From positions 1 to 6,146 of IMG/VR virus record IMGVR_UViG_3300028991_000057: 6,146 bases of DNA; one strand, 5' to 3'. The notes below the pieces were generated by a model, which saw nothing but the letters and a program-made list of their open reading frames with translations, searched no databases and was not told the DNA's origin. Source of the stretch: a virus (lineage: Duplodnaviria; Heunggongvirae; Uroviricota; Caudoviricetes). Every line of letters begins with the position of its first letter. The stretch's first letter is position 1. Below, one piece after another: positions 3,323 to 3,407 of this stretch. The position numbers and the translations under genes were made by a program.

Positions 3323-3378
3323 AGTAAGAAATTCCTCTTCGACTTAAAAAATCATAACTGTATGTTCATCCAGTTATG

Positions 3379-3407
3379 ATTATAATCAGGATTGCATTTT
3401 GTGCAAT
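3379..3407 (-). promoter_or_regulatory. candidate sigma70 promoter of the head operon with overlapping palindromic operator
   Basis: On the minus strand TTGCAC (3406-3401), 16-nt spacer, TATAAT (3384-3379), about 55 nt upstream of the 68-aa gene start. The palindrome ATTGCA-ttttg-TGCAAT (3391-3407) overlaps the -35. Confidence 0.4.

What the first reader, a model, noticed from the sequence alone, without database searches (positions are those of the whole stretch)
3323..3407. Palindromic operator overlapping a near-consensus promoter upstream of the head operon
On the minus strand a perfect -10 (TATAAT) and TTGCAC -35 with a 16-nt spacer are correctly placed for the RHH-E-D operon. The 6-bp-arm palindrome ATTGCA-N5-TGCAAT overlaps the -35, and further TTGCA half-sites lie nearby (3422). 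The first gene of the operon encodes an RHH-like protein, a fold used by many small repressors. This suggests autoregulation, or a control point where a helper-derived signal switches on capsid production.
Basis: inference. Interest (0 to 1): 0.45.

Follow-up and report, generated by a model that had tools for sequence, protein, structure and literature searches.

The report
SOS-box promoter of a satellite's head operon

Summary
On the minus strand, TTGCAC (3406-3401), a 16-nt spacer and TATAAT (3384-3379) lie 57 nt upstream of the 68-aa gene. ATTGCA-N5-TGCAAT (3407-3391) overlaps the -35.

The window belongs to an EcCICFT073-type Gram-negative PICI: 68-aa gene, capsid E homologue, decoration D homologue, scaffold-like gene, cos, Nu1-like gene.

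Taken alone the palindrome is at chance level. It matters because it is conserved. A second site of the same design, TTTCA-N5-TGCAA, lies 30 bp upstream. Both are kept in three diverged island lineages from E. coli and Salmonella.

It scores as well as the recA box and is the only such site in the window. CTG and CAG are invariant while the flanking bases vary. Two of the three lineages keep it.

Best reading: a sigma-70 promoter repressed by host LexA, as in SaPI operon I, with a second, unidentified regulator binding the TTKCA-N5-TGCAA pair. The 68-aa protein is a candidate for that regulator, but its RHH fold is only weakly supported.

No paper I could search reports LexA control in Gram-negative PICIs. 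This is a new member of a known kind, of moderate interest.

The parts
3421..3437 (-). O1: upstream operator-like site ATTTCATAATTTGCAAC (TTTCA-N5-TGCAA), centred about -57
   Evidence: Exact match to TTKCA-N5-TGCAA. Almost every base is invariant in 76 distinct relatives. Kept in the Salmonella-type lineage (ATTTCATAATTTACAAC) and the L014-type lineage.
3411..3415 (-). TCAAT half-site that forms CAAT-N3-ATTG with the left arm of O2
   Evidence: Conserved in lineages A, B and C (TCAAT-ATC-ATTGC, GCAAT-TGT-ATTGC, TCAAT-TGC-ATTGC). Its role is inferred only.
3391..3407 (-).
   Evidence: Arms nearly invariant, first spacer base variable, AAAA invariant. Kept in all three lineages.
3401..3406 (-). 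-35 hexamer TTGCAC (3 of 6 matches to TTGACA)
   Evidence: Sequence. TTGC invariant, last base variable.
3379..3384 (-). -10 hexamer TATAAT, 16-nt spacer from the -35
   Evidence: Sequence. 75 of 76 relatives keep it. Identical in the Salmonella type. TAAAAT in the L014 type.
3356..3375 (.). LexA (SOS) box AACTGTATGTTCATCCAGTT. The 16-mer core CTG-N10-CAG is 3358-3373, about -1 to +15 relative to the predicted start near 3372.
   Evidence: Heterology index 3.96. It is the only site in the window below 14. None of 200 random windows scored below 9.28. The matrix was validated on MG1655. CTG and CAG are invariant while 3374-3376 are hypervariable. HI is 4-8 in 73 of 76 relatives and 6.5 in the Salmonella type.
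3350..3381 (-). Extended inverted repeat around the SOS box, followed by a T-run (3351-3346). It would form a hairpin plus U-run only in RNA transcribed from upstream.
   Evidence: 15-nt arms, 93% complementary. Folds at -13.4 to -16 kcal/mol, z -3.4 to -4.4. Three pairs change on both sides. Absent in lineage C.
3334..3337 (-). Shine-Dalgarno GAGG of the 68-aa gene
   Evidence: Sequence; invariant.
3116..3322 (-). First gene of the operon: 68-aa protein, possibly RHH-like. Its TAA stop overlaps the capsid ATG (TAATG).
2061..3116 (-). Major capsid protein E homologue
   Evidence: Pfam Phage_cap_E, 5e-49.
1714..2049 (-). Head decoration protein D homologue
   Evidence: Pfam HDPD, 4e-18.
1288..1701 (-). 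137-aa protein similar to the C-terminal (scaffold) part of head maturation proteases
   Evidence: phrog_1999, and phrog_53 residues 495-566.
538..1092 (-). Nu1-like small-terminase homologue, downstream of a lambda-type cos site (cosN at 1214-1225)
   Evidence: Pfam Phage_Nu1, 7e-23. cosN match. No PDB match, including RppC.
3485..3555 (-). Two tandem intrinsic terminators that end the upstream PerC/SSB operon and isolate the head operon
   Evidence: 3555-3538; arms 3485-3498 and 3510-3523. Conserved in relatives.

Best explanation
The region is the sigma-70 promoter of the late (morphogenesis and packaging) operon of an EcCICFT073-type phage-inducible chromosomal island. The operon is insulated from the upstream replication/PerC operon by two terminators.

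RNA polymerase would use TTGCAC, a 16-nt spacer and TATAAT, and would start near 3372 (inferred). A canonical gamma-proteobacterial SOS box lies across that start. In undamaged cells the host LexA dimer would block initiation. DNA damage leads to RecA-mediated LexA cleavage and would derepress the operon. The same signal induces lambdoid helper prophages, so operon expression would coincide with helper induction. This is the logic shown experimentally for SaPI operon I in Staphylococcus aureus.

It would bind a dimeric or tetrameric DNA-binding protein that is not identified. The 68-aa first-gene product is one candidate, acting as a negative autoregulator.

Shown here: the sequence elements, their conservation, and the statistical quality of the LexA site. 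Inferred: the transcription start, LexA binding, and the identity and sign of the O1/O2 regulator.
For: - Element identity. The island carries int, an HTH regulator, an Icd-like gene, a primase, SSB, PerC, the 68-aa gene, capsid E, decoration D, a Nu1-like gene and lambda cosN. This matches published EcCICFT073 features.
- Promoter. Perfect -10 and a TTG -35 with a 16-nt spacer. The -10 is kept in 75 of 76 relatives and in Salmonella-type islands. Terminators lie just upstream.
- Quality of the LexA box. HI is 3.96, within the range of bona fide E. coli boxes (1.0 to 9.3 on my matrix). It is the only site in 6146 bp on either strand with HI below 14. The best HI in 200 random windows was 9.28 or higher.
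- Matrix check. On MG1655 DNA the remembered boxes lie exactly upstream of ruvA, recA, lexA and uvrA/ssb. An HI<9 scan of 39 kb returned only those sites.
- Conservation of the box. The family consensus CTGGATGAACATCCAG shares 12 of 16 bases with the ruvAB box CTGGATATCTATCCAG. CTG and CAG are invariant, 3374-3376 are hypervariable, and internal changes fall at central positions and at position 13 (C/A).
- Spread of the box. It is kept, with HI 6.5, in Salmonella-type islands whose 5' UTR has diverged. It is the only such site in each island scanned.
- Context of the box. All 36 metagenome matches to the -10 plus box pattern lie in this same promoter context.
- Position. LexA boxes that overlap the start site are the typical arrangement for tightly LexA-dependent genes (PMC8072944).
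- O1 and O2. They are nearly invariant and are kept in all three lineages.
- Precedent. [quoted passage not shown] 2007, cited).
Against: - There is no experimental start site, no LexA binding data and no expression data for this promoter.
- One lineage (L014, L413-L416) has lost the CAG half-site and weakened the -10 to TAAAAT, yet keeps O1 and O2. LexA control is therefore dispensable there.
- EcCICFT073 interferes with lambda on plain infection of non-lysogens through a gene of this region. SOS is not expected to be induced under those conditions (my inference). The operon must then also be expressed without LexA cleavage, either by leak, by read-through or through the O1/O2 regulator.
- alpA, the master activator, responds to the helper and not to SOS.
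- The CTGGAT...ATCCAG palindrome could in principle be read by another dimeric protein, or serve as a hairpin.
- My HI matrix was built from remembered sites. Only six of them were checked against genome sequence.
Confidence: 0.7

Rival explanations
1. The 68-aa RHH-like product binds the ATTGCA-N5-TGCAAT palindrome and the upstream half-sites, and represses its own operon. This negative autoregulation is the main control. It is compatible with LexA control as a second input.
For: - O2 covers -35 to -19, a typical repressor position.
- Half-site centres are 11 bp apart. From my knowledge of Arc and Mnt operators, this suits a dimer of dimers.
- A second site lies 30 bp upstream.
- The promoter and the 68-aa gene are always found together, in three lineages and in 36 of 36 metagenome hits.
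- The protein has an extended N-terminal segment (GGVSVYISP) followed by two helices.
- hhalign places residues 8-25 in register with the strand and helix A of known RHH proteins.
- From memory, as a lead only: the PutA RHH domain recognises GTTGCA.
Against: - No Pfam RHH hit at E up to 0.1.
- hhalign probability is 1%.
- No PDB sequence match.
- The protein has about equal numbers of acidic and basic residues by my count. Its putative strand has S/T, Y and S rather than the basic or amide residues I recall as usual for base contacts.
- Two protein alleles only 68% identical sit behind the same operators. This is uninformative, because the putative strand is unchanged.
- Co-occurrence can be explained by simple linkage.
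Confidence: 0.3
2. O1 and O2 bind an activator or anti-repressor made only when a helper phage is active. Candidates are the island's AlpA, its PerC-like protein, another small early protein, or a helper protein. On this model the operon is switched on by the helper, and the weak -35 reflects dependence on an activator.
For: - The -35 matches consensus at only 3 of 6 positions.
- O1 is centred near -57, a common activator position.
- Interference with lambda on infection needs expression without SOS.
- AlpA activates island genes and is induced by the helper, not by SOS.
- O1 and O2 outlast the LexA box in lineage C.
Against: - O2 lies between -35 and -19, which is unusual for an activator.
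- Islands that lack PerC next to the promoter keep O1 and O2.
- I saw no TTKCA-N5-TGCAA site in the alpA promoter region of L001.
- The region has no similarity to any phage genome. Exact O1 matches outside this island family are unrelated, mostly AT-rich sequences.
Confidence: 0.3
3. The CTG-N10-CAG palindrome is not a LexA site. It is conserved either as the operator of another dimeric protein, or as the stem of a hairpin plus U-run that terminates read-through from the upstream operon.
For: - If transcribed from upstream, the extended repeat folds at -13.4 to -16 kcal/mol and is followed directly by UUUUUU.
- Three outer pairs change on both sides, and the covariation score exceeds 499 of 500 shuffles.
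Against: - The inner 16-mer matches the LexA matrix as well as recA or dinQ do. A structural palindrome has no reason to do so.
- The change seen in this window (ATCCAG to ATACAG) breaks a stem pair but improves the LexA half-site.
- The commonest outer pair, 20-41, is unpaired in 10 of 24 sequences.
- The promoter's own transcript would lack the 5' arm, and the 33-nt 5' end folds no better than shuffled sequence.
- Two good terminators already lie upstream.
- The covariation control can be exceeded by related sequences that have no structure.
Confidence: 0.12
4. Nothing regulatory beyond a plain promoter. The palindrome and O1 are conserved only because the islands are recent relatives.
For: - The palindrome alone is at chance level within the window.
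- Most relatives are 90-95% identical overall.
Against: - In the Salmonella-type and L014-type islands the sequence between and around the blocks has diverged.
- In those islands O1 (16 of 17 bases), O2 (14 of 17) and the -10 persist.
- Within E. coli relatives the variable columns fall between the blocks.
Confidence: 0.05

Closest known systems
SaPI operon I promoter (Staphylococcus aureus pathogenicity islands), repressed by LexA (Ubeda et al. 2007, Mol Microbiol 65:41)
   Same: Both are phage satellites (PICIs). In each, the packaging and morphogenesis operon has its own promoter carrying a host LexA box. The operon would therefore be derepressed by the SOS signal that also induces the helper prophage, separately from the island's master switch.
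   Different: The hosts are Gram-negative, so the LexA motif differs (CTG-N10-CAG; the Gram-positive motif is different, from my knowledge). The operon content is unrelated (lambda E, D and Nu1-type homologues, against SaPI terS/cpm/ppi). The master switch is the AlpA activator rather than the Stl repressor. An extra conserved operator pair (O1/O2) is present. LexA control here is predicted, not shown.
Chromosomal E. coli SOS boxes, especially ruvAB (CGCTGGATATCTATCCAGCA) and recA/dinQ
   Same: A 16-mer CTG-N10-CAG with an A/T-rich centre. It shares 12 of 16 bases with the ruvAB core. The HI lies in the same range, and the site lies at the promoter.
   Different: It sits on a mobile satellite and controls phage-type structural genes, not repair genes.
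P22 Arc/Mnt, CopG and PutA-type ribbon-helix-helix autoregulators (from my knowledge)
   Same: A small first-gene product with an N-terminal strand-like segment and two helices. A palindromic operator of about 17 bp overlaps the promoter. The half-site TTGCA resembles the PutA site GTTGCA.
   Different: No significant sequence or profile match to any RHH family. There is a long 12-residue loop between the helices. DNA binding is untested.
P4 late promoters Psid and PLL, activated by helper P2 Ogr or P4 Delta (from my knowledge)
   Same: A satellite morphogenesis operon with its own promoter and a conserved upstream dyad near -55.
   Different: The Ogr/Delta site is TGT-N12-ACA, and those promoters have poor -35 regions with no site between -35 and -10. 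No such motif is present here. The helpers are lambdoid phages, which use Q antitermination rather than a promoter-binding activator.

Membership tests
Gamma-proteobacterial LexA (SOS) box | 16-bp core CTG-N10-CAG within a 20-bp palindromic consensus TACTG(TA)5CAGTA | tested here: met
   AACTGTATGTTCATCCAGTT at 3356-3375. The consensus is quoted in PMC6590174.
Gamma-proteobacterial LexA (SOS) box | Heterology index in the range of sites that bind LexA. The threshold of about 12.6 (Lewis et al. 1994) is recalled from memory. | tested here: met
   HI 3.96 for the window, 4-8 for 73 of 76 relatives, and 6.5 for the Salmonella type. The matrix was rebuilt from 25 remembered sites. Six of them were verified in MG1655, with no false positives in 39 kb.
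Gamma-proteobacterial LexA (SOS) box | Located at the promoter (overlapping -35, -10 or the start site) of the regulated gene | tested here: met
   The core starts 5 nt after the -10 hexamer and ends 35 nt before the ATG. The start site itself is predicted, not measured.
Gamma-proteobacterial LexA (SOS) box | LexA binds, and the gene is induced by DNA damage in a RecA- and LexA-dependent way | not testable with these tools
   Needs EMSA or footprinting, reporter assays or ChIP. No published data were found.
Sigma-70 promoter | -10 and -35 hexamers with a 16-18 nt spacer, correctly placed upstream of a gene | tested here: met
   TATAAT matches 6 of 6, TTGCAC matches 3 of 6, and the spacer is 16 nt. 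The -35 is too weak for the tool's scan. The -10 is conserved in 75 of 76 relatives.
Sigma-70 promoter | Experimentally mapped transcription start | not testable with these tools
   Needs 5' RACE or dRNA-seq.
Ribbon-helix-helix (RHH) DNA-binding proteins (the 68-aa product) | Significant match to an RHH sequence family or profile | tested here: not met
   No Pfam family at E up to 0.1. No PDB sequence match. hhalign against seven RHH proteins gave probability 1%.
Ribbon-helix-helix (RHH) DNA-binding proteins (the 68-aa product) | Strand, helix, helix topology that forms an intertwined dimer | tested here: inconclusive
EcCICFT073-type Gram-negative PICI | About 10-15 kb island with int, an alpA-type regulator, a primase/replicase, lambda-type cos and capsid E/D homologues, no tail or lysis genes, and its own attachment site | tested here: met
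   The L001 island lies between clpS and cspD. Domain hits are, and cosN. The features are as described in PMC6092414 and PMC6739421. The match of the HTH regulator to the AlpA family was not tested.
EcCICFT073-type Gram-negative PICI | Induction and transfer by a helper phage | not testable with these tools
   Shown for EcCICFT073 in the literature, not for this island.
Rpp (redirecting phage packaging) proteins, for the 184-aa Nu1-like product | Sequence similarity to a characterised Rpp | tested here: not met
   No PDB match at E up to 10 apart from a chance repeat protein, so no match to RppC 6HLK. I therefore call it only a Nu1-like protein.

The most novel reading that the evidence does not exclude
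The late operon of EcCICFT073-type satellites is a two-input switch that evolved independently of the SaPI one. Host LexA gates it to DNA damage. A satellite-specific RHH-like protein from a family of only 16 cluster representatives binds an array of TTKCA/TGCAA half-sites (O1, CAAT, O2) and sets the level, or couples it to the helper. Lineage C, which lost the SOS box but kept the array, would then be a natural experiment showing the array is the primary control.
Probability: 0.2. Interest if true: 0.55.

Novelty: new member of a known kind. Interest (0 to 1): 0.42.

Why it matters
How Gram-negative PICIs time their packaging and interference genes is not described in the papers I could search. 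Those papers establish only the helper-induced AlpA activator for excision and replication.

A conserved SOS box on the capsid and Nu1-like operon gives a concrete and cheaply testable model: this operon listens to the host's DNA-damage signal, not to AlpA. That would be a case of convergence with staphylococcal SaPI operon I.

It also bears on antibiotic-driven spread. SOS-inducing drugs would prime satellite packaging functions in the many E. coli that carry these islands. The promoter region matched 779 of 5426 complete genomes.

The conserved TTKCA-N5-TGCAA pair marks a second, unknown regulator worth identifying.

Tried and rejected
- **Similarity to phage genomes.** BLAST of the promoter region against 50,697 phage genomes gave only chance-level matches. 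This is against mimicry of a helper late promoter.
- **O2 pattern in IMG/VR.** A scan for a 14-base O2 pattern gave unrelated hits and was too unspecific to use.
- **O1 pattern in IMG/VR.** A scan for the 17-base O1 found it with O2 and the -10 only in this island family. All other hits were unrelated sequences.
- **Third site at 3882-3896.** A third TTKCA-N5-TGCAA-like site lies in the tail of a terminator and is at chance level, so I rejected it.
- **alpA promoter.** I saw no O1/O2-like site in the alpA promoter region of L001.
- **Other candidate sites, checked by eye only.** Lambda CII-type TTGC-N6-TTGC, a sigma-54 -24/-12 element, the marbox, CRP/FNR-type and LacI-type sites. None fits in spacing or orientation.
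- **Alternative upstream promoter.** TTCATA-18-TATCAT was flagged by the scan. I rejected it because its -10 is not conserved and has no counterpart in the Salmonella type.
- **Known RNA families.** Rfam found none in the region.
- **Remote homologues of the 68-aa protein.** A profile search of 1.84 billion representatives extended the family only to 16 proteins. I did not scan these against Pfam, so none is linked to a recognisable RHH domain.
- **Literature.** Searches for LexA together with PICI or EcCICFT073 found only citations of the SaPI paper. A search for the locus tags c1498-c1503 was swamped by a leukaemia cell-line name.
- **Q-antiterminator idea.** I considered a loading site (O2 between -35 and -10, and a -10-like TATGAT at about +17). 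It rests on nothing but position, so I rate it at about 5% or less.

Full report
**1. What the window is**

All substantial ORFs lie on the minus strand. Pfam and PHROG scans give the following gene order, from high to low coordinates:
- the C-terminal part of a primase (annotated 'DNA primase family protein' in relatives);
- small ORFs;
- an SSB (4618-4208);
- a PerC-family protein (4317-3925);
- a small ORF (3877-3575);
- the 68-aa ORF (3322-3116);
- a lambda E-type major capsid protein (3116-2061);
- a lambda D-type decoration protein (2049-1714);
- a 137-aa protein resembling the scaffold end of head proteases (1701-1288);
- a Nu1-like small-terminase homologue (1092-538).

The window matches chromosomal islands in 1979 of 5426 complete E. 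coli genomes. The best full-length matches are about 93-94% identical. It matches real phages only over two 70-nt stretches.

In one annotated relative the island is about 11 kb and lies between clpS and cspD. It starts with an integrase, a small HTH regulator, an Icd-like gene and a primase. This is the organisation of the Gram-negative PICI EcCICFT073. In that island the capsid (c1499) and decoration (c1500) homologues, two lambda-type cos sites, and the packaging redirector RppA (c1503) have been described (PMC6092414 and PMC6739421). The window carries exact lambda cosN 12-mers at 1214-1225 and at 347-358.

**2. The observation**

- -35 TTGCAC at 3406-3401;
- 16-nt spacer;
- -10 TATAAT at 3384-3379;
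- palindrome ATTGCA-CAAAA-TGCAAT at 3407-3391;
- another TTGCA at 3422-3426.

The -35 matches consensus at only 3 of 6 positions, so the consensus scan did not report this promoter.

Within the window alone neither feature is remarkable. One 6-bp-arm, 5-nt-spacer palindrome was seen against 1.5 expected. TTGNNN-N16-18-TATAAT occurs once, and 17% of random windows have at least one.

Two tandem terminators (3555-3538, and arms at 3523-3510 and 3498-3485) end the upstream operon. The head operon therefore needs its own promoter.

**3.

The strongest inverted repeat in the stated interval is 3350-3381. Its core, 3356-3375, reads AACTGTATGTTCATCCAGTT. This is CTG-N10-CAG with an A/T-rich centre, the gamma-proteobacterial LexA box. 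The consensus TACTG(TA)5CAGTA is quoted in PMC6590174.

I rebuilt a heterology-index (HI) matrix from 25 remembered E. coli LexA boxes:
- The window site scores 3.96. For comparison, recA scores 4.3, dinQ 3.8 and ruvAB 7.1.
- It is the only site in the window, on either strand, with HI below 14.
- None of 200 random windows of the same composition reached 9.28.

As a check on my memory, I fetched three MG1655 regions. The remembered ruvAB, recA, lexA (two boxes) and uvrA/ssb boxes sit exactly upstream of those genes. An HI<9 scan of 39 kb returned those sites and nothing else.

The box core begins 5 nt after the -10 hexamer, so it covers about -1 to +15 of the predicted transcript. It ends 35 nt before the ATG. 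Boxes that overlap the start site are typical of tightly LexA-dependent genes (PMC8072944).

**4. Comparative evidence**

I collected upstream regions from 14 E. coli genomes and from IMG/VR contigs. This gave 76 distinct sequences. I also collected more distant islands through homologues of the 68-aa protein.

Column by column:
- CTG (3373-3371) and CAG (3360-3358) are invariant in the sequences that keep the box.
- The three bases between the -10 and CTG (3376-3374) are the most variable in the region.
- Changes inside the box fall at the central positions and at position 13 (C/A). Known LexA boxes vary at these same positions.
- 73 of the 76 sequences have HI 4.0-8.1.

The family consensus CTGGATGAACATCCAG shares 12 of 16 bases with the ruvAB core.

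Three lineages can be compared:
- **Lineage B, Salmonella-type.** The 68-aa homologue is 54% identical and the replication module is different. These islands keep GACTGGATGAAAATCCAGTA (HI 6.5) after an identical GATTATAAT, although the 5' UTR and the upstream flank have diverged.
- **Lineage C (L014, L413-L416).** The box has decayed to CTGACTTTTCGTTATG and the -10 has weakened to TAAAAT.
- **One E. coli island (L013).** A 34-bp deletion has removed the -10 and the box, and perC is frameshifted there.

A metagenome scan for the -10 plus box pattern returned 36 stretches, all in this same promoter context.

**5.

The palindrome is conserved, and more widely than the SOS box:
- The arms of O2 are nearly invariant and the first spacer base varies.
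- A second site of the same design, TTTCA-TAATT-TGCAA (O1, 3436-3422), lies 30 bp upstream and is almost invariant.
- A TCAAT half-site (3415-3411) forms CAAT-N3-ATTG with the left arm of O2.

All of these persist in lineages B and C, while the sequence between them changes. I therefore regard O1 and O2 as a genuine protein-binding element.

O2 spans about -35 to -19, which is a repressor-like position. O1 is centred near -57.

I could not identify the binder:
- Exact O1 matches with O2 and the -10 downstream were found only in this island family.
- There is no similarity to phage genomes.
- I saw no copy of the site in the alpA promoter region.
- Islands that lack a neighbouring perC still carry the sites.

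**6. Is the first gene product an RHH protein?**

The evidence is weak in both directions.
- There is no Pfam hit, and the PHROG family has no known function.
- The family is tiny: 25 clusters in 5.8 billion proteins and 16 representatives in 1.84 billion. The named members come from E. coli and Salmonella.
- AlphaFold (pLDDT 73) gives a coil at 8-14 and helices at 15-34 and 47-58. That is what an RHH monomer would look like, but with a long loop between the helices.
- hhalign aligns residues 8-25 with the strand and helix A of seven known RHH proteins, but at 1% probability.
- Two alleles of the protein, 68% identical, share the same operators. This is uninformative, because the putative strand is identical in both.

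Autoregulation is therefore possible but untested.

**7. A structural rival**

If transcribed from upstream, the extended repeat folds into a hairpin of -13.4 to -16 kcal/mol followed directly by a U-run. Three outer pairs show changes on both sides. It could act as a third terminator for read-through transcripts.

Several points count against this as the reason the core is conserved:
- The core matches the LexA matrix far too well for a purely structural palindrome.
- The substitution in this window breaks a stem pair while improving the LexA half-site.
- The promoter's own transcript would lack the 5' arm.
- Lineage C has no such hairpin.

**8. Mechanism proposed**

Inferred steps are marked.
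- In undamaged cells LexA sits across the start site and blocks the promoter (inferred).
- SOS induction cleaves LexA and frees the promoter (inferred). It also induces lambdoid helper prophages, which is established knowledge.
- The operon is thus switched on when a resident helper is induced.
- A second regulator acting at O1/O2 sets the level, or provides a route independent of SOS (inferred).

That second route seems necessary. EcCICFT073 interferes with lambda on simple infection, and alpA responds to the helper rather than to SOS.

The published parallel is SaPI operon I, 'required for SaPI packaging and controlled by LexA' (Ubeda et al. 2007, cited).

**9. Novelty**

Searches of the held literature found no statement that a Gram-negative PICI operon carries a LexA box. 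The kind of element, an SOS-box promoter on a satellite packaging operon, is known. This would be a new member of that kind in a different phylum, with an added unidentified operator pair. Interest is moderate: a specialist would not be astonished, but the model is specific and easy to test.

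Noticed in passing
window 1214-1225 (minus) and 347-358 (plus): Two exact lambda cosN 12-mers (GGGCGGCGACCT) in inverted orientation flank the Nu1-like gene, each with lambda-like flanking sequence. Many relatives have both, some have one, and the Salmonella-type islands have none. Two cos sites (cos1, cos2) are already published for EcCICFT073.
   Followed up: partly
L013 (E. coli SCU-171), equivalent to window 3355-3388: A 34-bp deletion between ATGATT direct repeats removes the -10 and the SOS box. The neighbouring perC is frameshifted. This looks like a decaying island.
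   Followed up: partly
L014, L413-L416 (lineage C): These islands keep O1, O2 and a TAAAAT -10, but the SOS box has decayed to CTGACTTTTCGTTATG. They are a natural variant without predicted LexA control.
   Followed up: yes
L001 17600-17700: Three copies of a GTGCGATKCAC-like repeat lie between the divergently transcribed YlcI-like and Icd-like genes. This may be the island's early regulatory switch.
   Followed up: no
window 5289-5449: The intergenic stretch just downstream of the primase gene gave several sub-threshold hairpin-type Rfam matches. Published PICIs have their replication origin just downstream of the replication initiation gene. Not analysed.
   Followed up: no
window 1255-1281 (minus): A strong intrinsic terminator (GGCCGGAGAAATCCGGCTTTTTTTT) lies between the 137-aa gene and cos/Nu1-like gene. 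The Nu1-like gene may therefore not be co-transcribed with the capsid genes unless there is read-through.
   Followed up: no
window 3116-3322 and relatives: The 68-aa protein exists as two alleles only 68% identical, differing mainly in helix A, the loop and the C-terminus. They sit behind essentially the same promoter and next to capsid genes that are at least 91% identical, which suggests recombination within the operon.
   Followed up: partly
Genome-contig collection: Both scans (68-aa protein, capsid protein) found pattern matches, but none was confirmed by tblastn. Yet the same proteins are abundant in E. coli RefSeq genomes and in IMG/VR (against 6, 38). This may be a masking or tool artefact.
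   Followed up: no
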